The notes beneath the pieces are model-generated. The model was not told the origin of the DNA. It did not search any database and worked only from the letters and a program-made list of their open reading frames with translations. From Limosilactobacillus gorillae (GTDB lineage Bacteria; Pseudomonadota; Alphaproteobacteria; CAAGCB01; CAG-977): a DNA stretch of 64,000 nt. The stretch spans positions 1,516-65,515 of the forward strand of contig CAVCSV010000005.1 in NCBI GenBank assembly GCA_963604715.1, given 5' to 3'. Positions 2,015 to 47,771 of this stretch are shown here, piece by piece; position 1 is the first letter of the stretch; the number at the start of each line of letters is the position of its first letter. The translations under genes were made by a program, and so were the position numbers.

Positions 2015-3358
2015 ATGGACGAATGGCACAAAAGTTTGATTGACGACATAGACGCTTTGCCCGAATACCGTTCGCACGGGTCGGTTTCGGCGGTCAAAGG
2101 CATGCTGGTCGAAATGACGGGCGCGCGTTCCGAATTGTCCGTCGGCGACCGATGCACGATTTTGGCGCGCGCGGGCAAAAAAGTCCCCGCCGAAGTCGTC
2201 GGATTCAACGGCGGCAAAGTATTGCTGATGCCGTTTGCGAACCTTGACGGCGTGGGGCCGGGAAACGAAGTCGATTTAAGCAACGCGCATCCCGTTTTGT
2301 ATCCCGACGTTTCTTGGCTGGGGCGGGTGATTAACGCCATGGGCGAACCCGTCGACGGCAAAGGCCCGCTGAAAAAAGGCAAGATTCCGTGCTTGATTCA
2401 CGCGTCCCCTCCGCCCGCCAATTCGCGCGAACGCGTCGCGGGCAAAGCCGATTTGGGCGTGCGGGCGATTAACACTTTCCTGACGCTGTGCAAGGGGCAG
2501 CGTATGGGCATTTTCGCGGGGTCTGGCGTGGGCAAGTCGTCCTTGATGGCGATGATGGCGCGTCATACGCAGCTGGACGTTACCGTTTTGGGGCTTATCG
2601 GCGAACGCGGACGCGAAGCGCGCGAATTCATCGAGGACGACTTGGGCGTCGAGGGCATGAAGCGCAGCGTCGTCGTGGTGGCGACGTCGGACGAAAGCCC
2701 GCTGATGCGGCGGCAGGCGGCTTATGTCGCGATGACGGTTGCCGAGTATTTCCGCGATTTGAACAACAACGTTTTGTGCATGATGGACAGTATTACGCGC
2801 TTTGCGATGGCGCAAAGGGAAATCAGCCTGTCGGCGGGCGAACCGCCGGCGACCAAAGGCTACACGCCGACGGTGTTTGCGGAGCTTCCACGTTTGCTGG
2901 AACGCGCGGGTCCGGGGCGCATCGGGTCGGGGTCGATTACGGGCTTGTTTACCGTTTTGGTGGACGGCGACGACCACAACGAACCGATTGCCGACGCGGT
3001 GCGCGGCATTTTGGACGGGCATATCGTTTTGGAACGCGCGATTGCCGAACGCAACCGCTATCCCGCGGTCAACCTGCTGCGCAGTATTTCGCGTACCATG
3101 CCGGGATGCAACACGGACGAGGAAAACGCCCTTGTCAACCGCGCGCGCGCCTTGATTGCGACGTATGAAGATATGGCGGAGCTTATCCGTTTGGGCGCGT
3201 ACAAGCGCGGGTCGAACGCACAGGTCGACGAAGCGATTTTCTATTATGACAAGCTTGAAGCCTTTTTGTCGCAAAAGAAAAAGGAAAAAGTCGATTTCGC
3301 AACGGGTTATCAGCAGCTGAAAGACATCTTGTCGCAAAAGCCGTCCGGTGCTGAATAA
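2015..3358 (+). CDS. fliI: flagellar export ATPase FliI (type III secretion ATPase family)
   Basis: Walker A GSGVGKS, Walker [13 protein letters not shown]1/T3SS-ATPase architecture; followed by a fliJ-like gene. Confidence 0.9.
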
Positions 3359-3816
3359 TGGCGAAGAACGACCTGAAGACGCTGATACGCGTGCATCAAT
3401 TCGAACTGGACGAAAAACGCCGTCAGCTGGGCAATCTGCTGCGGTTCGAACAATCGCTTGAAAACCGCAAAATCCTGCTTGCCAAACGGTTCAAGGAGGA
3501 AGAGGAAGCCGCCAAAAGCGACCAAACGGCGGCGCTGACGTTCGGGGCGTATGTCGATTGGCACATCGACGAAACAAAGCGGGTCGAGCGCGCTTTGGTC
3601 GATGTTCGGCAGGAAATCGCATTGATGCGCGATGAAATACGGGAAGCGTATCAGGAACTGAAAACCTTTGAAATCACACAGGAAAACCGCGAAAAACGCG
3701 AAGCGGCGGAACTGGAGCGCAAAAACAACGCCGTGCTGGACGAAATCGGCTTGACGCTTTACAGACGCAGACAGGAAGAAGATTCCGCCGAAGAAAAGAA
3801 AAAAGACGATGAATAG
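3358..3816 (+). CDS. fliJ: flagellar export chaperone FliJ-like coiled-coil protein
   Basis: 152-aa charged coiled-coil; start overlaps the fliI stop (TAATG); fliI-fliJ order is conserved. Confidence 0.55.
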   Translation: MAKNDLKTLIRVHQFELDEKRRQLGNLLRFEQSLENRKILLAKRFKEEEEAAKSDQTAALTFGAYVDWHIDETKRVERALVDVRQEIALMRDEIREAYQELKTFEITQENREKREAAELERKNNAVLDEIGLTLYRRRQEEDSAEEKKKDDE

Positions 3817-16188: not shown

Positions 16189-16222
16189 AGCCCCCTTGCC
16201 GCTGCGGCAGGGGGGCTTTTTG
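16189..16222 (+). terminator. Rho-independent terminator after ileS (GCCCCCTTGCCGC / GCGGCAGGGGGGC plus T-run)
   Basis: Long inverted repeat followed by TTTTT. Confidence 0.6.
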
Positions 16223-16297
16223 TATGAAAAATCAATAAAAAATAAACCAATTTTTGGCAAAATAGCGGCGATGTCATTTGTCGCAAGGGGATGGAAT

Positions 16298-18727
16298 ATG
16301 AAATTGACCCGTACCGCTTTGAAAGTTTTGACCGCCCGTTACCGCGCCGTGTTAATCCGTTGTCTGGCAGGCGTGCTGACCGTATCCGCCGCCCAAGCCC
16401 AGAGCTTGACCGACGGAACGCTGACCGAAAACAAGACGTTTGACGGCGGCAGCGGGACTTCCGTCAGTTCGGGATTGAACATTGACGGCGACAGTCAGTA
16501 TACGCTGACGTTGGACGGGACATGGACGTTCAAGGGCAGCAACGATTATGTTTTTTCGAATTTGAAAGAATTGAACGCGGCGCGTGTCGATATAGACGCG
16601 AATTTCAAAATTTCGAATTCGGAAGTGAATTTTACACAGCAGACGCAAATCAAAGCGGGCGCGACGCTGACTTTGGAATCCGTTACGGGCAGTTTTTACG
16701 ATATTTCCGCGGCGGGGACGCTGATTGTGGACGATGCCAGCAATATTACCCTGACAAACGCGCTGATGGTCGGCACAATCAAAAACGGCGGAACGATTAC
16801 GCTGGATACGTCCAACATCGCTTTTGATTTCAATACGGTGATTGATTCATACGACGACGACACAAACGGAACGCTGGTTGTAACAGGGGAAAAAGGGGCG
16901 ATATTTTCCAGCACGCTGACAAACAAACTGACGGTCACCACGGATTCGAAAGCGACGTTCAATACGACGTCAAACCTGCAAAGCGACACCCTTGCCATCA
17001 GCGGACAGCTGATTTTTACGGAAGAATCCTCGTCCTTTAACGCAAACAATTACAGCTGGAGCGGTACGGGCGTGGTTAAAATGGCAAACGGAATGACGTT
17101 TCAGGGGGATTTCGGTTCGGTCAGCGTTTCTTTAAACGGGGATGCCGCCGCAACGGGCGATATTGCAACGGGAAACGTATTCTTTTTGGGCGCAAACACG
17201 CTGGATTTGGGAAAACGGACTCTGACCGCGGATGAAATCATCGGTTATGATAATTCATCACAACCAAGCGTTGAAGCCTCAGGAGGGGTGGCAAGGAGCG
17301 GTGTCTCTACGGGGATTATCAAAATCACTTTGCCCGCGACGGGAAACACGTCGTCGATTTTGAATGCGGATGTATCAACGGTCACGATTGCGCTGGATTT
17401 GTCGGCTTTGCAAAAGAAAAAGGTGGAAAAATACATTCTTGTCGAAAAAGACAAAGAGTTGACCGATGTCTTTCTGGAGTACGACAGCAAAAAGTATGTG
17501 ATTTCGTATACCGGGTTTGAACGCAAGGACGCCAAAAATATCACCAGTCTGACCGAATTGACGACCGAGGGCGGCGGTACGGTTTACATCGGATTGAAAA
17601 TGGGGTCGGGCGAACAGGCGGTTGATGATTTGATTGACGGCGGCATTCCTGTTACGCCGGCGGATGAAATCGCGGGCGACATTATTGACGAACTGGACAA
17701 CGACGACATCAATGACGCGCTGGACAACGCGGATTTGAAAGACAAGAAAAACATCCTGCGCGAAGTCGGATTGGATACCGCCAACACGCATATTGCCGTT
17801 TCGGCGGCGCGCACGGTTTTGGACACGGTATCCGCCCGCTTGACGAACATTGCGGAAACGCCGCGCTACAGCCCGTACTATGAAAACATTCGGCATAACA
17901 AAACAAGAATGTACAAAGGACGCAACGGCGGCGACTATGTCGCGGGCAGGGCGAGCCTGTGGGTGCGCGGGCTGGTGAACAAAACGAACTTTGACGGCGA
18001 ACATGCTTTTGACGCGGATTCGACGGGTTTCGCCGCGGGGCTGGAGGGTTCCCCGTCAAACGATTGGAAAGTGGGCATCGGTTACGCCTACACGTCGACG
18101 GATGTCGATGCCGACAGGTCGAAAACGGATGCGAAAACAAACGCCGCTTTCCTGTACGCGCGCTACAAACCGGAAAGCTTTTACATCAACACCGTCGGAA
18201 CGTTCGGGCATACCGATTTCAAAGATACGACGAAAATTCTGAAGCTGAAATCCGACTATTCGACGGATACGGTTGCGGTGCAGGCTGTCACAGGCTATGA
18301 TTTCGGAACGTTTTCGCCCGAAATCGGCGCACGCTACACCGCCGTTCATCAGGACGATTACAAAACGGGACTGAATTTGAACGTCAAATCCAAAACAATG
18401 GAATACGCAACCGCAATCGCGGGATTCCGCGCGGGAATGACGCGATACCTGCGTTTGAACAGAAAAGTGGCAATCCGTTCCGAACTTAAAGCGCTGGCGA
18501 CTTACGACTGGTTGCGCGACGATGAAACGCGGCTGGTTGCAATGCCTGACAATTCGGCGACGTATGTGATGAAAGGCGAAGCTTTCGCCCGTTTCGGCGG
18601 CGAAGTCGGCGCGGACGTGTTCCTGACGTTCGGCGGCGCGGGCGAAATCGTGCTGACGTATGACGGCAAATTCAAAGAGGATTATCAGGACCATACGGGC
18701 ATGGTCAGTCTGAAAATCAATTTCTGA
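16298..18727 (+). CDS. classical (type Va) autotransporter with extended signal peptide, repetitive passenger and C-terminal beta-barrel translocator ending in F
   Basis: Signal peptide MKLTRTALKVLTARYRAVLIRCLAGVLTVSAAQAQ; Thr/Asn/Gly-rich passenger; about 280-aa C-terminal domain with alternating beta-strand pattern and terminal KINF. Start moved from 16196 (inside the ileS terminator) to ATG 16298, which has a Shine-Dalgarno. Confidence 0.75.
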   Translation: MKLTRTALKVLTARYRAVLIRCLAGVLTVSAAQAQSLTDGTLTENKTFDGGSGTSVSSGLNIDGDSQYTLTLDGTWTFKGSNDYVFSNLKELNAARVDIDANFKISNSEVNFTQQTQIKAGATLTLESVTGSFYDISAAGTLIVDDASNITLTNALMVGTIKNGGTITLDTSNIAFDFNTVIDSYDDDTNGTLVVTGEKGAIFSSTLTNKLTVTTDSKATFNTTSNLQSDTLAISGQLIFTEESSSFNANNYSWSGTGVVKMANGMTFQGDFGSVSVSLNGDAAATGDIATGNVFFLGANTLDLGKRTLTADEIIGYDNSSQPSVEASGGVARSGVSTGIIKITLPATGNTSSILNADVSTVTIALDLSALQKKKVEKYILVEKDKELTDVFLEYDSKKYVISYTGFERKDAKNITSLTELTTEGGGTVYIGLKMGSGEQAVDDLIDGGIPVTPADEIAGDIIDELDNDDINDALDNADLKDKKNILREVGLDTANTHIAVSAARTVLDTVSARLTNIAETPRYSPYYENIRHNKTRMYKGRNGGDYVAGRASLWVRGLVNKTNFDGEHAFDADSTGFAAGLEGSPSNDWKVGIGYAYTSTDVDADRSKTDAKTNAAFLYARYKPESFYINTVGTFGHTDFKDTTKILKLKSDYSTDTVAVQAVTGYDFGTFSPEIGARYTAVHQDDYKTGLNLNVKSKTMEYATAIAGFRAGMTRYLRLNRKVAIRSELKALATYDWLRDDETRLVAMPDNSATYVMKGEAFARFGGEVGADVFLTFGGAGEIVLTYDGKFKEDYQDHTGMVSLKINF

Positions 18728-38289: not shown

Positions 38290-39201
38290 ATGGCTGATAA
38301 AGAAATTCCGGCGGCGCTTTCTTCGTTGTACGAAGCCCTTTTGGCGTATCAGGATACGCAAGAGGGGCTGGGGCGCGTCCGTTCGCTTGCCGAAGCCGTG
38401 TGGGGCGCGGATTGGCGCGCAAAACTGCCGACGATTGTTCAGGACTGCCCCGAAAGCAACCAAGCCAAAGTCAAAACGAATCTGGACCGCGCGTTAAGAT
38501 ACGAAAAAGCGGGGTCGATGTGGACGGAAGCGTCCCGTTTGGCGGATCCCCGCCGTCCGATTGACGTCGCCAAAGCCAAAGAGCAGCTGCCCGAAATGCA
38601 GAAATGGCTTGCCGTGTTCGGCAAAGCGGGGGCGGATTTGCTGGCGCGTCTGGTCAAAAGAATCGGCGACGCCGAATCTTCCCAGCCCGTTGCCGCCGCC
38701 GACGGTTCGGTCAATCCTTACGGGTTGACCATTGACCAGCTGTGGAACTTCGACCATTTTATGCGGCTGAAAACCTACTATGACCAAACGATTTCCCGCA
38801 CCAGCGCGCGCTGCGTCCATTTGGGCGGACTGGAGCTGACGCAGTATCCGTATTTCGGCTACATCCTTGATTTGCTGGACGAAATTCTGACGTTCGGCAT
38901 GGAAATCATGACGCCGCCTTATGCTGCCATTGTGCGCGACCGCTACAAAGGCGGCGACGCCGCTTTGCGCAAGCTGCTGGCGGAATTCAAAAAAGAATTC
39001 GAAGACAACGCTCCGCCCGAAATGCTGTCCGAAGAGGAAGAGTCTTTGGACGAAGTGAAAAACCGTTTGGGGTCTTTGGCTGACAATTCCGAACCCGAAG
39101 GCGACATCGGTCCCGCGCCCGACGGATTTGTCGCCCCCGACGAACAGCAGGCTCAGCCTGACCAGCCCGCGCAGTCCGCCGCGGGAACATCGACTGCTTA
39201 A
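38290..39201 (+). CDS. hypothetical protein (303 aa)
   Basis: ORF track; acidic C-terminus; no motif recognised. Confidence 0.4.
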   Translation: MADKEIPAALSSLYEALLAYQDTQEGLGRVRSLAEAVWGADWRAKLPTIVQDCPESNQAKVKTNLDRALRYEKAGSMWTEASRLADPRRPIDVAKAKEQLPEMQKWLAVFGKAGADLLARLVKRIGDAESSQPVAAADGSVNPYGLTIDQLWNFDHFMRLKTYYDQTISRTSARCVHLGGLELTQYPYFGYILDLLDEILTFGMEIMTPPYAAIVRDRYKGGDAALRKLLAEFKKEFEDNAPPEMLSEEEESLDEVKNRLGSLADNSEPEGDIGPAPDGFVAPDEQQAQPDQPAQSAAGTSTA

Positions 39202-39211
39202 GGAAAACGAA

Positions 39212-40453
39212 ATGTTCCGCTTTTTGCTTCACTCAACAACCGTTTTGGCGACTCTCGCAGGACTGTTCGGATTGACCGCGTGTCAAACCCAAAACATCCG
39301 CGCGGGACGTCCGCTGGTCAATCTGGTGCGTCCGACCGATTTGCCGACGGAACCGAAAACAACGCGCGCGGCGCAGATGATAAGCTTGGAAACGCCTTTG
39401 CGCTGTACAATCGAGGAAACGCAAAAGAATATCATGACCGCCGTTCCGTTCAGACAGGAAGCGTTCAAACTGGAACGCGCGGAACAAAGCGACACGCTGC
39501 CGCTGTTCGAAGTCAAAGGCTTTTCGTTTGACGGACAAACGGCGGAAAAAGTGTTTTACAAGTTGCTTAGCGGCGCGAAAATCAAAGTCATCGGCGTTGA
39601 CGGTCCGTTCCCCGAACTTGCCGCCGAAAACATCACGGGCGAACTGTCGGACGTGATGGAAATGATTGCTTCCGCCGCCGATGTGTATTACCGCTACGAC
39701 GCCAAGCAGAAAACGCTGTTCGTCAGCCGCGAAGTCGGCTGGAACATGTTTGTTCCCGACCGCCGCGAAGTGATGATTGCCGTTCTGGATTCCCTGCGCG
39801 GGGCGGGCATGCACGATTTGTCCGTCAACTGGGAGGAAAACGTCATTTCCTTCAAAGGCGACAAAGGAACGGAAGCCAAGGTGCGCCAGCTGATTGATTT
39901 GTTCGACAAAGAACCGAATCTGATTGTGTTCAACGTGCAGGTTTTGCGCGTCAAACCGCTCAGCCCCGCCAAAGAAATCAACTGGCAGGATTTAATCGAA
40001 ACATTCGGCGCGGGAACGATTCGCGTTTCCGTCAACGGCGTTTTGGGGCGGTCGCTGGTTACGGCGCACAAAATCAACGCGCAGAGCTTGAGCCGTTTTT
40101 TGACGCCGCGCGCGCAGTTCGCCGTCGTGTCCGAAGGCATGTTCATTGCCGCCGACAAATGGCGCGCCCGTTTCGACGTCGGACGGTGCGGCTATATGTC
40201 GATGCCCGAAGCGCAGCTGTCTTTGATGGCGCAGACAGAACTTTACGGCGACCGCGGCGAACGGATGAAAACCGTCTTGACATTGGATTCGATGCAGGGC
40301 GAAATAACGTCGTTCAAAACGAAAAACACGCTGGGGGACAATATTTTGCTGATAGGCATTCCGGCGTCGTCTTTCGCCGATTCGCTCAAAGGCTATGAAA
40401 CAGTCGTCGTGCTGACGCCGCACATCATCCGCTTGGTCAAAGAAATCGTTTAA
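39212..40453 (+). CDS. secretin-family outer-membrane lipoprotein (short, about 414 aa)
   Basis: Lipobox LTAC; secretin N-domain-like segments; C-terminus matches the secretin signature (IGIPASSFADSLKGYETVVVLTPHII). Start moved to ATG 39212, which has a Shine-Dalgarno. Confidence 0.55.
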   Translation: MFRFLLHSTTVLATLAGLFGLTACQTQNIRAGRPLVNLVRPTDLPTEPKTTRAAQMISLETPLRCTIEETQKNIMTAVPFRQEAFKLERAEQSDTLPLFEVKGFSFDGQTAEKVFYKLLSGAKIKVIGVDGPFPELAAENITGELSDVMEMIASAADVYYRYDAKQKTLFVSREVGWNMFVPDRREVMIAVLDSLRGAGMHDLSVNWEENVISFKGDKGTEAKVRQLIDLFDKEPNLIVFNVQVLRVKPLSPAKEINWQDLIETFGAGTIRVSVNGVLGRSLVTAHKINAQSLSRFLTPRAQFAVVSEGMFIAADKWRARFDVGRCGYMSMPEAQLSLMAQTELYGDRGERMKTVLTLDSMQGEITSFKTKNTLGDNILLIGIPASSFADSLKGYETVVVLTPHIIRLVKEIV

Positions 40454-40465
40454 AAGGAATAAATC

Positions 40466-41230
40466 ATGTCCGATCAGGATCAACATTATCCGCATCCGCC
40501 CGTTTCCCCCGTTTACGGACAAGTTCCTCCCGCGCCGGTGGGGATGCCGCGCCCGATGCCGATGAAAATGCCGGCGGGGATGAAAATGCCGCCGCGTCCG
40601 ATGGGCTATCCCATGCCGGCGGGGATGAAAATGCCGCCGCGTCCGATGGGCTATCCCATGCCGCAACCCGTTGCGCCCCAGCCTGCCGTTCAGCCCGTCG
40701 AAGAGGAAATTCCCCCCGCCGCCGAAGAAGAGGCGGCAGAGGAACTGCAGGCCGACGAAAACGGCATTATCGACGATTTGGACGAAGAAATCCCCGTCGA
40801 ACAGGAAGAAGAGGAATTCGAAAATCCTTACGACAAAAACTTTGCGTCCGATTTGGGATTGCCCCCCGCGTTTATCAGAACGCCGATGATTTTGTTCTTT
40901 TTCCTGATGTTCACGTTTATCGGCGCGGGGTTGGGATTCTTTTACGGGACGATGGATTCGCGCGGCGCGGATGAATTGCCGGGTGTTGTAACGAACGCCG
41001 AAATTCCCAAGGGACGCCCCCGTTGCGGCATTGCCCAAAAAGGGCAGGGCTGTGTGTTTTATGTGATGAATGCTCAGCGCAAAGAATTGGAGGCGCGCGA
41101 TTTTTTCGGCATTGCGTCGGATATGCTGCAAATGCCGAAATTCCAAATCGAAACGGCGAACATCCGTTATGCGACGACGCGGATTCCCCCCGGCTACATC
41201 GCTTTGCTGAACATTCCGCCGTTGCAGTAA
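40466..41230 (+). CDS. proline/methionine-rich bitopic membrane protein (MPAGMKMPPRPMGYPMP repeats, acidic segment, one TM helix, periplasmic C-domain)
   Basis: ORF track; one hydrophobic helix (MILFFFLMFTFIGAGLGFFYG). Confidence 0.45.
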   Translation: MSDQDQHYPHPPVSPVYGQVPPAPVGMPRPMPMKMPAGMKMPPRPMGYPMPAGMKMPPRPMGYPMPQPVAPQPAVQPVEEEIPPAAEEEAAEELQADENGIIDDLDEEIPVEQEEEEFENPYDKNFASDLGLPPAFIRTPMILFFFLMFTFIGAGLGFFYGTMDSRGADELPGVVTNAEIPKGRPRCGIAQKGQGCVFYVMNAQRKELEARDFFGIASDMLQMPKFQIETANIRYATTRIPPGYIALLNIPPLQ

Positions 41231-41273
41231 AGACGGGCTTTCCATCAAATATTTTTGACAAAATTTTTTACAA

Positions 41274-41310
41274 AGGCCTTGTTATGTGTAAAACAAGCCC
41301 TTTGTTTTTT
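41274..41310 (+). terminator. Rho-independent terminator (AGGCCTTGTT / AACAAGCCCT plus T-run)
   Basis: 10-bp stem with one mismatch, followed by TTTGTTTTTT. Confidence 0.5.
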
Positions 41311-47632: not shown

Positions 47633-47771
47633 TCAAATAAAACTTGTTTAGTTTCAATCTGTTAAGATTTTTTGTAAAGGACGTTTCGAAAAAACGTTTC
47701 TTTTCTTTTGAAAACGGGATATAGTGAATCGTCGGATTAGTGTGTCCGCCGTTGTAAAAGGGAGCTTTGAA

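What the first reader, a model, noticed from the sequence alone, without database searches (positions are those of the whole stretch)
39212..41230. Orphan lipoprotein secretin with a Pro/Met-rich membrane partner, but no pilus or T2SS/T3SS genes nearby
The 414-aa mature protein has an LTAC lipobox, secretin N-domain-like segments, and the secretin C-terminal signature (LLIGIPASSFADSLKGYETVVVLTPHIIRL). The next gene encodes a bitopic protein with MPAGMKMPPRPMGYPMP repeats and a periplasmic domain. Lipoprotein secretins occur in bundle-forming or toxin-coregulated pilus systems. An isolated secretin beside T4SS components is unusual. It could be the outer-membrane conduit of an unrecognised machine or a filamentous-phage pIV-like remnant
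Basis: partly seen in the sequence, partly recalled or inferred. Interest (0 to 1): 0.5.

Follow-up and report, generated by a model that had tools for sequence, protein, structure and literature searches.

The report
Gate-less secretin relative beside T4SS genes
The gene encodes a real but very diverged and shortened relative of the secretin outer-membrane channels that has lost its central gate loops. It is conserved with three partner genes beside type IV secretion genes in more than 200 species of uncultured gut Alphaproteobacteria, so a pilus-type portal may have been reused by a type IV secretion system.

Summary
Both ORFs are real. ORF A (39212-40453, 413 aa) has an LTAC lipobox. ORF B (40466-41230, 254 aa) has one transmembrane segment and a perfect 45-bp tandem repeat.

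Pfam, NCBIfam and PDB sequence searches give no secretin hit for A. However:
- An AlphaFold model (pLDDT 82) matches only secretins in Foldseek, best the lipoprotein secretin BfpB (E 1.8e-10).
- A family profile reaches PF00263-positive secretins, and profile-profile alignment to them covers the whole protein (prob 99.9, E 2e-36).
- The alignment shows about 50 residues missing. Gate 1 is cut from about 30 to about 12 residues, Gate 2 is deleted, and the loop before the last strand is shortened.

A is not isolated. HTH-giant protein-U-A-B is syntenic across 82 loci out of 209 species hits. A VirB6-like array lies upstream in 42/44 loci, and VirB10/VirB11 lie downstream in 29/54.

Its closest canonical relatives sit inside virB operons next to a pilus ATPase, platform protein and pilin-like genes. 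No pilus, T2SS or phage genes occur in the window.

Best reading: a reduced, probably ungated secretin ring tied to an rvh-like T4SS. Function is inferred, not shown. It is a new variant of a known kind.

The parts
39212..40453 (+). ORF A: 413-aa prelipoprotein, a reduced secretin homologue. Layout: lipidated Cys24, linker, N0, N3, lip, then a double-barrel remnant.
39212..39283 (+). Signal peptide with lipobox L-T-A-C. The Cys24 codon is 39281-39283.
   Evidence: Read directly from the sequence. Cys24 is invariant in alignment A1.
39284..39502 (+). Linker region, comparable in position to the LG domain of BfpB. Residues 25-58 are predicted disordered. A conserved element follows (RTT..A..LSLETPLRC, with invariant C65), then two short helices and a hairpin.
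   Evidence: pLDDT below 50 for residues 25-58. Invariant columns. LG domain described in PMC12531336.
39503..39751 (+). N0-like domain (residues ~98-180).
39764..39958 (+). N3-like ring-building domain (residues ~185-249). It ends in a long strand that runs into the outer barrel.
   Evidence: Secondary structure of the model; hhalign to A2 secretins.
39959..40111 (+). Compact lip region (residues ~250-300, about 40 aa). It aligns to the lip region of canonical relatives with only a 7-residue gap.
   Evidence: The size matches the ~36-residue lip of phage secretins (PMC8563730).
40112..40450 (+). Reduced secretin beta-domain (residues 301-413). Seven strands remain, fitting the last three outer and the four inner strands of the secretin fold; the first outer strand, residues 236-249, lies in the N3-like part above.
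40160..40219 (+). Gate 1 remnant (residues 317-336). The most conserved motif, W..RFDVGRCG, keeps the first hinge Gly (G324). The loop is about 12 residues instead of about 30, and the second hinge Gly is absent. C326 is invariant.
   Evidence: pIV hinge residues G267/G297 from PMC8563730.
40283..40303 (+). Gate 2 remnant (residues 358-364). A tight turn, LDSMQGE, replaces the ~20-residue Gate 2 loop.
40466..41230 (+). ORF B: 254-aa bitopic partner. The Pro/Met-rich and acidic N-terminal part is probably cytoplasmic. It has one TM segment and a conserved C-terminal domain.
   Evidence: It follows A in 78/82 loci.
40568..40663 (+). Perfect 45-bp tandem repeat (2.1 copies) encoding MPAGMKMPPRPMGYP. 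Copy number varies among relatives.
40865..40951 (+). Transmembrane segment of B (residues ~134-162).
   Evidence: Hydropathy; helix 139-167 in the model.
40973..41227 (+). Conserved C-terminal domain of B (residues ~170-254), probably periplasmic, with two invariant Cys (C187, C196). The fold is unresolved; a beta-alpha-alpha-beta shape is weakly suggested.
38290..39201 (+). ORF U: 303-aa protein without signal peptide or TM segment. It is directly upstream of A in 81/82 loci. The conserved core is residues ~145-275.
34410..38222 (+). BIG: ~1270-aa repeat protein with no signal peptide or TM segment. Only residues ~25-95 are conserved across clades. The rest is Ala/Gln-rich 23-aa repeats, YYLDENG 9-aa repeats and an acidic Pro-rich tail.
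   Evidence: Present in 41/44 loci with enough upstream DNA.
33337..34329 (+). Regulator with two HTH_3 domains; first gene of the conserved unit.
   Evidence: HTH_3, E 4e-26. Present in 43/44 loci.
41270..41310 (+). Hairpin followed by a U-tract after ORF B; the likely end of the transcription unit.
   Evidence: dG -14.2 kcal/mol, z -2.7, 0 of 200 shuffles as stable; sequence.
28568..33212 (+). Array of three VirB6/TrbL-like polytopic membrane proteins, plus a 57-aa two-TM ORF at 31641-31814. A strong terminator follows at 33218-33244.
   Evidence: TrbL, E 1.2e-8 and 1e-3, the second below Pfam's cut-off. Cross-hits among the three..
21431..23785 (-). VirD4-type T4SS coupling protein.
   Evidence: T4SS-DNA_transf, E 4e-58.

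Best explanation
ORF A is a strongly diverged, size-reduced member of the secretin superfamily.

Architecture. It has the layout of type IVb-pilus lipoprotein secretins: lipidated Cys, linker, N0, N3, lip, and a double beta-barrel. There are no N1/N2 domains and no S domain.

What is kept and lost. The four outer and four inner barrel strands are retained. The two gate loops and most of the loop before the last strand have been pruned.

Most likely mechanism. A is lipid-anchored in the outer membrane and oligomerises into a secretin-type ring whose lumen is no longer closed by its own gate. Its conserved partners are ORF B (an inner-membrane bitopic protein whose small Cys-containing periplasmic domain would contact the ring or the cell wall) and two cytoplasmic proteins (U, and the N-domain of the giant repeat protein BIG). 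With them it forms an envelope-spanning module that works with the neighbouring VirB6-rich, rvh-like type IV secretion system. It would serve as that system's outer portal or outer ring. It does not serve a pilus, a T2SS or a phage.

Origin. The family probably descends from secretins of type IV-pilus-like modules embedded in virB operons. The pilus ATPase, platform and pilins were lost along the way.

Shown: homology, fold, the deletions, the lipobox, synteny and the T4SS neighbourhood.
Inferred: oligomerisation, membrane insertion, lack of gating, contacts with B/U/BIG, and any role in type IV secretion.
For: Fold:
- The AlphaFold model of A has pLDDT 82.3 and pTM 0.74.
- All 22 Foldseek PDB matches with E <= 1e-3 are secretins. 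The best is BfpB 9u5s_A at E 1.8e-10, then PilQ, InvG, EpsD and pIV.

Homology:
- The family profile finds 326 proteins. The distant ones (E 1e-13 to 1e-22) are longer proteins.
- Of 10 of these scanned, 9 carry PF00263.
- hhalign of the family (A1) against 23 such secretins (A2) gives prob 99.94 and E 1.9e-36 over 336 columns, reaching the C-terminus.

Deletions:
- The same alignment has gaps of about 16+4, 20 and 20 residues.
- pIV aligned to A2 (E 6.8e-14), with the pIV residue map in PMC8563730, places these gaps at Gate 1, Gate 2 and the loop before the last strand.
- The model still shows 4+4 strands.

Lipoprotein: Cys24 and the lipobox are invariant. The LG-N0-N3-secretin layout matches BfpB in PMC12531336.

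Context:
- U is next to A in 81/82 loci and B in 78/82.
- HTH is present in 43/44 loci, BIG in 41/44 and a VirB6-like array in 42/44.
- A giant VirB10 (TrbI, E 2e-36) and a VirB11-like gene lie convergently downstream in 29/54 and 28/54 loci.
- Two more divergent lineages keep HTH-x-A followed by a short ORF; L093's aligns with ORF B, L092's does not.
- Terminators bracket the unit.

Origin: canonical relatives lie inside virB operons. An example is VirB8-VirB9-secretin-x-T2SSE-T2SSF-pilin-like ORFs-VirB10-VirB11.

Precedent: N0-domain lipoproteins are already known as T4SS outer-membrane parts, namely DotD (PMC2951367) and Xanthomonas VirB7 (PMC3093366).
Against: - There is no experimental data of any kind.
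- Pfam, NCBIfam and PDB sequence profiles do not recognise A.
- The positions of the deletions rest on a profile-profile alignment at 18% identity and on a monomer model.
- Neighbourhood is the only link to the T4SS. A strong terminator separates the VirB6 array from the unit.
- In the window's own clade the downstream neighbours are housekeeping genes (RNase J, an aldo/keto reductase, GAPDH).
- These genomes do encode a VirB10 with a TrbI domain, which normally forms the T4SS outer-membrane pore. A secretin portal is therefore not obviously needed.
- An ungated 6-9 nm pore would be harmful unless plugged.
- Genome-wide absence of pilus, Tad or T2SS genes was not tested.
Confidence: 0.55

Rival explanations
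1. A is the outer-membrane channel of a dedicated export or display pathway for the giant repeat protein BIG. U would act as chaperone or adaptor and B as the inner-membrane link. The pathway would be independent of the T4SS, or would use it only for crossing the inner membrane.
For: BIG, U, A and B form one conserved unit with tight spacing. BIG is a long repetitive protein with a short conserved N-domain and variable, adhesin-like repeats.
Against: - BIG and U have no signal peptide or TM segment.
- The unit has no ATPase and no polytopic inner-membrane channel. B is single-pass.
- BIG is absent from one divergent lineage that keeps HTH, a 235-aa ORF and A (L092), whose downstream ORF does not align with B. 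It is absent or too diverged to detect in 3/44 loci.
Confidence: 0.15
2. A is no longer a conduit. The secretin scaffold has been reduced to a periplasmic or outer-membrane-tethered structural ring or anchor. B would tie it to the inner membrane or to peptidoglycan, for example to position or stabilise the T4SS or the envelope.
Against: The lip region and all eight barrel strands are retained and conserved, which is unexpected for a mere tether. The LysM idea has no sequence support and rests on a low-confidence model.
Confidence: 0.15
3. A is the secretin of a type IV, Tad or T2SS machine encoded elsewhere in the genome. In that case it is not orphan, just unlinked.
For: The closest canonical relatives are pilus-type secretins. 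Only 64 kb of this genome and +/-10 kb of the others were seen.
Against: Loss of both gate loops is not known for any working pilus or T2SS secretin. Synteny with the T4SS genes and with U/B is constant over 82 loci, while no T2SSE >500 aa, T2SSF or prepilin gene appears in any flank.
Confidence: 0.12
4. A is a remnant of a filamentous-phage pIV gene, or a decaying gene without function.
For: A is similar in size to pIV. One GenBank record labelled 'Bacteriophage sp.' contains a homologue.
Against: That record is unverified and carries the same chromosomal VirB6-HTH-BIG-U-A-B module. There are no relatives in 2.9 million IMG/VR contigs and no PHROG hits. pIV does not align to the family. The gene is intact and conserved down to 34-38% identity in 209 species.
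Confidence: 0.02

Closest known systems
Type IVb-pilus lipoprotein secretins (BfpB of EPEC, PDB 9u5s; also TcpC and R64 PilN)
   Same: Both have an N-terminal lipidated Cys and a linker ahead of N0. Both have N0 and N3 only, then the secretin domain, with no S domain. BfpB is the best Foldseek match (E 1.8e-10). The layout matches PMC12531336.
   Different: - Neither PF00263 nor TIGR02520 hits A.
- The beta-domain is about 50 residues shorter, with Gate 1 and Gate 2 trimmed.
- No pilus ATPase, platform or pilin genes are nearby.
- No BfpG- or TcpQ-like partner was detected.
Unnamed secretins embedded in virB-type T4SS operons with a T4P-like ATPase and platform (loci L090, L095, L096; PF00263-positive, MshL/PilN-like but below the NCBIfam cut-offs)
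   Same: These are the closest canonical sequence relatives (profile E 1e-13 to 1e-22; hhalign E 1.9e-36). They are lipoprotein-like, with a conserved Cys near position 20. They lie among VirB genes.
   Different: They keep full-length gates (they align to pIV without large gaps). They are 450-870 aa long, and some carry a TcpQ domain. They are followed by T2SSE/T2SSF and pilin-like genes. ORF A's partners U, B and BIG have no detectable counterparts there.
N0-domain lipoproteins of T4SS outer-membrane complexes (Legionella DotD; Xanthomonas VirB7)
   Different: DotD and VirB7 are small and have only the N0 domain. ORF A also keeps N3, the lip and the double barrel.
Filamentous-phage secretin pIV (PDB 7ofh)
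   Same: Both are small secretins with N0, N3, a compact lip and no S domain. pIV is a Foldseek match (E 5.9e-5).
   Different: pIV has full gates. It is not a lipoprotein and lies in a phage genome. pIV aligns to the A2 secretins but not to the ORF A family.

Membership tests
Secretin superfamily (Pfam PF00263-type outer-membrane channels) | PF00263 Secretin domain hit at or above the Pfam gathering score | tested here: not met
   No PF00263 hit even at E <= 1. No secretin NCBIfam hit. No PDB sequence hit with the single sequence or the profile.
Secretin superfamily (Pfam PF00263-type outer-membrane channels) | Homology of the C-terminal beta-domain to PF00263-containing proteins | tested here: met
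   hhalign of A1 against A2 gives prob 99.94 and E 1.9e-36 over 336 columns, reaching the last strand. The A2 members are PF00263-positive. The 22 Foldseek matches with E <= 1e-3 are all secretins.
Secretin superfamily (Pfam PF00263-type outer-membrane channels) | N-terminal N0 and N3 ring-building domains | tested here: met
Secretin superfamily (Pfam PF00263-type outer-membrane channels) | Central gate: Gate 1 loop (~30 residues between two hinge Gly) and Gate 2 loop | tested here: not met
   The Gate 1 loop is about 12 residues, with only the first hinge Gly (G324). Gate 2 is replaced by a turn. The residue map comes from PMC8563730. The result is alignment-based.
Secretin superfamily (Pfam PF00263-type outer-membrane channels) | 12-17-mer heat/SDS-resistant ring in the outer membrane | not testable with these tools
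   Only monomer prediction was available.
Secretin superfamily (Pfam PF00263-type outer-membrane channels) | Encoded with an inner-membrane platform and a secretion ATPase (T2SS, T4P, T3SS or phage pI) | tested here: not met
   None in the window or in +/-10 kb of 82 loci, apart from a VirB11-like ATPase of the T4SS. The genome-wide question was not testable.
Type IVb-pilus lipoprotein secretins (BfpB/TcpC/PilN) | Lipobox and N-terminal acylated Cys ahead of N0 | tested here: met
   LTAC in the window; Cys24 invariant.
Type IVb-pilus lipoprotein secretins (BfpB/TcpC/PilN) | NCBIfam TIGR02520 (PilN family) or equivalent family model | tested here: not met
   no hit.
Type IVb-pilus lipoprotein secretins (BfpB/TcpC/PilN) | Located in a type IVb pilus operon with a BfpG/TcpQ-type accessory protein | tested here: not met
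   No pilus genes nearby. hhalign of B, U and A against TcpQ domains is negative.
T4SS N0-domain lipoproteins (DotD, Xanthomonas VirB7) | Lipoprotein with an N0 domain encoded among T4SS genes | tested here: met
T4SS N0-domain lipoproteins (DotD, Xanthomonas VirB7) | Small protein consisting of a VirB7 motif or linker plus N0 only | tested here: not met
   A also has N3, a lip and the barrel strands.
Filamentous-phage pIV | Phage context (pI/pII/coat genes), or relatives in viral collections | tested here: not met

The most novel reading that the evidence does not exclude
A VirB/rvh-type type IV secretion system in gut Alphaproteobacteria has kept a secretin from an ancestral T4SS/type IV-pilus hybrid and stripped it of its gates. 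It now uses this ring as a permanent outer-membrane portal or outer ring of the T4SS. The ring would be linked through ORF B to cytoplasmic components (U, BIG). This would be a secretin-containing T4SS, an architecture not described for any type IV secretion system.
Probability: 0.3. Interest if true: 0.8.

Novelty: new variant of a known kind. Interest (0 to 1): 0.62.

Why it matters
Secretins are regarded as the gated outer-membrane portals of T2SS, T3SS, type IV pili and filamentous phages. T4SSs are thought to cross the outer membrane with VirB7/9/10 instead.

This is an unannotated secretin family. It is invisible to Pfam and NCBIfam, has lost its gate loops, and is conserved beside T4SS genes in more than 200 gut species. 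Two things would follow if the reading holds:
- The secretin fold can be reduced to an ungated ring.
- Parts of pilus machines have been absorbed into T4SSs further than the N0 domains of DotD and Xanthomonas VirB7.

The T4SS/pilus hybrid operons found among its relatives give a testable evolutionary route. In practice, the family, its partner families (U, B) and the hybrid operons deserve family models so that genome annotation stops calling them 'hypothetical'.

Tried and rejected
Searches that found nothing:
- Pfam, NCBIfam and PHROG scans of A, B, U and BIG gave nothing meaningful.
- phmmer and hmmsearch of A and its profile against PDB sequences found no secretin.
- pIV against the family profile found nothing, so the link to secretins needs the intermediate A2 group.

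Attempts to assign B and U:
- hhalign against the proteins flanking canonical relatives (L007, L090, L091, L095, L096) was negative.
- hhalign against TcpQ domains was negative.
It stays a weak hint only.
- A homologue search with U returned only lineage-restricted, unnamed proteins.

Phage origin: the IMG/VR scan was empty. The single 'Bacteriophage sp.' hit is a mislabelled chromosomal fragment.

Erythrobacter plasmid homologue: it is a short secretin-like protein with an ordinary signal peptide, next to an unrelated 1304-aa membrane protein. It told nothing about function.

Literature: searches for gateless or minimal secretins, and for the genome behind L096, found nothing. A search on RF32 and gut Alphaproteobacteria secretion systems gave nothing relevant.

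Not possible: reading model coordinates (to test a C65-C326 disulfide), multimer prediction, and whole-genome inventories.
Full report
**Observation**

ORF A (39212-40453, +, 413 aa) begins MFRFLLHSTTVLATLAGLFGLTAC. ORF B (40466-41230, +, 254 aa) follows after 12 nt. Both have AAGGA ribosome-binding sites.

- The lipobox Cys24 is invariant in 30 aligned homologues.
- The 413 aa is the precursor.
- B has one hydrophobic segment at residues ~134-162.
- B has a perfect 45-bp tandem repeat (40568-40663, 2.1 copies) encoding MPAGMKMPPRPMGYP.
- B has a very conserved C-terminal ~85 residues with two invariant Cys.

**Direct family searches fail**

- Pfam gives no Secretin hit for A even at E <= 1, and nothing for B.
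- NCBIfam gives nothing.
- phmmer, and an hmmsearch with the family profile, find no secretin among PDB sequences.

The matter therefore had to be settled by structure and by more sensitive comparisons.

**The family**

- A has 156 homologues in the clustered protein collection. All are unnamed and without Pfam domains, and those with a named source come from uncultured Alphaproteobacteria MAGs. They form two clades, at 54-99% and at 34-38% identity to the window protein.
- A scan of one genome per species found relatives in 209 species. Almost all are gut, rumen or faecal MAGs labelled Alphaproteobacteria, Rhodospirillaceae, 'Azospirillum sp.', 'Acetobacter sp. CAG:977' or 'Candidatus Scatocola'.
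- B has 78 homologues and U has 60, from the same lineage.

**Fold**

An AlphaFold model built on the 30-sequence alignment is confident (pLDDT 82.3, pTM 0.74). Only residues 25-58, just after the lipidated Cys, are disordered.

- Foldseek against the PDB gives 22 matches with E <= 1e-3, and every one is a secretin. The best is the type IVb lipoprotein secretin BfpB (9u5s_A, E 1.8e-10). It is followed by Vibrio PilQ, Salmonella InvG, EpsD, Pseudomonas PilQ and phage pIV.
- TM-scores are low. I attribute this to domain orientations in a monomer model differing from those in the assembled rings.
- The order of elements matches what was described for BfpB: lipid anchor, linker with a conserved element, N0, N3, then the beta-domain, with no N1/N2 and no S domain (PMC12531336).

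**Bridge to canonical secretins**

An exhaustive profile search with the family alignment found 326 proteins. Beyond the family itself, there are hits at E 1e-13 to 1e-22. These are 450-870 aa proteins matching profile positions ~85-330.

- Nine of ten scanned carry PF00263. Some also carry STN and a C-terminal TcpQ domain.
- NCBIfam places them nearest MshL, PilN and GspD, but below all cut-offs.
- Profile-profile alignment of the ORF A family against 23 of these secretins gives probability 99.94 and E 1.9e-36 over 336 columns, from N0 to the last strand.

ORF A is therefore a true secretin homologue over its whole length.

**What is missing**

From the conserved 'FL..QG.V..S.P' start of PF00263 to the C-terminus, ORF A has about 118 residues. 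Its relatives have about 170, and pIV has about 165. The alignment puts the missing ~50 residues in three places.

M13 pIV aligns to the same secretin group (E 6.8e-14), and its residue map is published: Gate 1 lies between hinge glycines G267 and G297, and Gate 2 between D321 and N335 (PMC8563730). Using that map:

1. Gate 1. The family's most conserved motif, W..RFDVGRCG, keeps the first hinge Gly (G324). The loop is about 12 residues instead of about 30, and the second hinge Gly is absent.
2. Gate 2. The loop is replaced by a tight turn (LDSMQGE).
3. The conserved Pro/Gly-rich loop before the last strand is cut by about 20 residues. From memory, this loop is the amphipathic helical loop that is considered important for membrane insertion in PMC7545093.

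The model nevertheless shows eight strands, consistent with four outer and four inner barrel strands. It also shows a lip region of about 40 residues, the size seen in phage secretins.

The gate loops seal canonical secretins, and gate deletions make pIV leaky. A ring of ORF A would therefore probably lack its own gate. This step rests on an alignment at 18% identity plus a monomer model. It is an inference, not an observation.

**Context in the window**

| Coordinates | Feature |
|---|---|
| 21431-23785 (-) | VirD4 coupling protein |
| 28568-33212 (+) | three VirB6/TrbL-like membrane proteins |
| 31641-31814 (+) | 57-aa two-TM ORF between the second and third of these |
| 33218-33244 | strong terminator |
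| 33337-34329 (+) | double-HTH regulator |
| 34410-38222 (+) | ~1270-aa repeat protein (BIG) |
| 38290-39201 (+) | U |
| 39212-40453 (+) | A |
| 40466-41230 (+) | B |
| 41270-41310 | hairpin plus U-tract |

Housekeeping genes follow: an Fe-S assembly protein, RNase J, an aldo/keto reductase, GAPDH and PGK. No ORF in the window has a T2SSE, T2SSF or pilin domain, and no frame contains a prepilin or Flp motif. FliI and FliJ at 2015-3816 are flagellar.

**Conserved neighbourhood**

Figures are from 82 related loci.

| Feature | Loci |
|---|---|
| U immediately before A | 81/82 |
| B immediately after A | 78/82 |
| HTH regulator (loci with >= 9 kb upstream) | 43/44 |
| BIG (same loci) | 41/44 |
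| VirB6-like array (same loci) | 42/44 |
| Giant VirB10 convergently downstream (loci with >= 9 kb downstream) | 29/54 |
| 322-aa VirB11-like ATPase beside it | 28/54 |

- The giant VirB10 is 1681 aa, with beta-flower repeats and a TrbI domain at E 2e-36.
- Two more divergent lineages keep HTH-x-A followed by a short ORF. In L093 that ORF aligns with ORF B; in L092 it does not.
- Across clades, only short parts of the partners are conserved: BIG residues ~25-95, U residues ~145-275 and B residues ~170-254.
- BIG and U have no signal peptide or TM segment.

ORF A is therefore not an isolated gene. It is the core of a conserved unit that lies within or beside T4SS gene clusters.

**Where the family came from**

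The canonical secretins closest to ORF A are themselves inside virB operons.

- L096/L097: VirB3-VirB4-x-x-x-VirB8-VirB9-secretin-x-T2SSE-T2SSF-five small ORFs-VirB10-VirB11. At least three of the small ORFs begin like type IV prepilins.
- L095: VirB10-VirB9(+TcpQ)-TcpQ-TcpQ-x-T2SSE-T2SSF-...-secretin(+TcpQ).
- L090: VirB8-VirB9-secretin-x-T2SSE.
- L007 and L091 show the pilus-type genes alone.

The simplest history is this. A T4SS cluster once had an embedded type IV-pilus-like module. In the gut alphaproteobacterial lineage the ATPase, platform and pilins were lost. The secretin was kept, shortened, and given new partners.

**Partner B**

The N-terminal ~130 residues are Pro/Met-rich and then very acidic, and their repeat number varies. 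They are unlikely to be exported. This gives an N-in, C-out topology, with the small Cys-containing domain in the periplasm. This topology is an inference.

- The model of B is poor (pLDDT 58; the C-domain is 60-77).
- No sequence method supports LysM.
- B and U show no detectable similarity to the proteins flanking canonical relatives or to TcpQ.

**Most likely mechanism** (confidence about 0.55 for the whole statement)

A is lipid-anchored in the outer membrane and assembles into a secretin-type ring without its own gate. B links it to the inner membrane and, through its cytoplasmic tail, possibly to U and BIG. The module works with the adjacent rvh-like T4SS as an outer portal or outer ring.

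Confidence in the parts:

| Claim | Confidence |
|---|---|
| A is a secretin homologue | ~0.95 |
| The gate loops are lost | ~0.7 |
| A forms an outer-membrane ring | ~0.6 |
| A has a functional tie to the T4SS | ~0.5 |

The main counter-arguments:
- Neighbourhood is the only link to the T4SS.
- A terminator separates the VirB6 array from the unit.
- A normal VirB10 pore domain exists in these genomes.
- An ungated pore needs a plug.

**Rivals**

- A dedicated exporter or display path for BIG (0.15). Weakened by the lack of a signal peptide on BIG and of any ATPase or channel in the unit.
- A purely structural, non-conducting ring or anchor (0.15). Weakened by conservation of the lip and all barrel strands.
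- A secretin serving a pilus, Tad or T2SS machine encoded elsewhere (0.12). Weakened by the loss of the gates and the constant T4SS synteny, but not excluded because whole genomes could not be searched.
- A phage pIV remnant or dead gene (0.02). IMG/VR has no relatives and PHROGs gives nothing. The one 'Bacteriophage sp.' record with a homologue (MT835708.1) is an unverified faecal scaffold carrying the same VirB6-HTH-BIG-U-A-B module.

**Comparison with what is known**

- ORF A works most like, and is built most like, the type IVb lipoprotein secretins. It fails their family models and lacks their gates and pilus genes.
- It shares the 'secretin-derived lipoprotein in a T4SS' theme with DotD (PMC2951367) and Xanthomonas VirB7 (PMC3093366). 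Those proteins keep only N0.
- Searches of the paper library for gateless or minimal secretins found nothing.
- I class it as a new variant of a known kind: an unannotated, reduced secretin family with a new genomic partnership.

**Limits**

- Everything functional is inferred from sequence, one monomer model and gene order in MAGs.
- No coordinates could be inspected. The idea that the invariant C65 and C326 form a disulfide is untested.

Noticed in passing
L096:131-21989 (NCBI GCA_004295055.1, SHNJ01000034.1); also L095, L090, L097: virB-type T4SS operons carry a complete type IV-pilus-like module inserted between VirB9 and VirB10. The module has a PF00263 secretin, a 616-aa T2SSE ATPase, a T2SSF platform and three ORFs with prepilin-like N-termini. 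In L095, VirB9 and two further ORFs carry TcpQ domains. I do not know of a description of such T4SS/T4P hybrid operons.
   Followed up: partly
L036:4190-9235 (-) and L036:9239-12367 (-); same arrangement in L037, L042, L048 and L052: A giant VirB10 homologue (1681-1886 aa) has about nine beta-flower repeats (PF21785) ahead of the TrbI domain. It is preceded by a second ~1000-aa beta-flower repeat protein and followed by a 322-aa VirB11-like ATPase. The group lies convergent to the A-B unit.
   Followed up: partly
L037:1545-4718 (+): One of the large VirB6-like proteins upstream of the unit carries a T6SS VgrG3-like C-terminal domain (PF21277, E 8e-24).
   Followed up: no
window 34410-38222 (+): The ~1270-aa protein BIG has 69-bp (23-aa, Ala/Gln-rich) repeats, 27-bp repeats encoding YYLDENGxP, and a long acidic Pro/Glu-rich tail. 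Only residues ~25-95 are conserved across clades. It has no signal peptide.
   Followed up: partly
window 39212-40453, residues C65 and C326: Apart from the lipobox Cys, two further Cys are invariant across both clades. One lies in the N-terminal conserved element (LETPLRC) and one in the Gate 1 remnant (RFDVGRCG). A disulfide between them is possible but could not be checked without model coordinates.
   Followed up: no
window 31641-31814 (+): A 57-aa ORF with two hydrophobic segments lies between the second and third VirB6-like genes. A 71-aa gene sits at the same place in L001 and L002. It could be a VirB3- or VirB2-like small subunit.
   Followed up: no
window 23915-26143 (-): Two ORFs of about 365-375 aa are similarly built, each with an N-terminal pair of TM segments and a C-terminal globular part. 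They have no Pfam hit and lie just upstream of VirD4. The same pair precedes VirD4 in L034, where the group lies downstream of the A-B unit.
   Followed up: no
GenBank MT835708.1 (L094): A record labelled 'UNVERIFIED: Bacteriophage sp.' from human faeces is a fragment of this alphaproteobacterial chromosome region (VirB6-like, HTH, BIG, U, A, B). It shows no phage genes among the matches.
   Followed up: yes
L006:14848-15981 (Erythrobacter aureus plasmid NZ_CP031358.1): A 377-aa short secretin-like protein (28% identity to A over N0-N3, E 1e-16) has an ordinary signal peptide rather than a lipobox and a similarly short C-terminal domain. It lies next to an unrelated 1304-aa membrane protein. 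Reduced secretin relatives therefore exist outside the gut lineage.
   Followed up: partly
window 47724-53441 (+): A 1450-aa protein with LPD7, RHS and MORN-type repeat hits is followed by a 450-aa ORF without hits. It may be a polymorphic toxin or effector locus.
   Followed up: no
window 16196-18727 (+): An 843-aa autotransporter (beta-domain, E 9e-28) lies between the isoleucyl-tRNA synthetase gene and the T4SS region.
   Followed up: no
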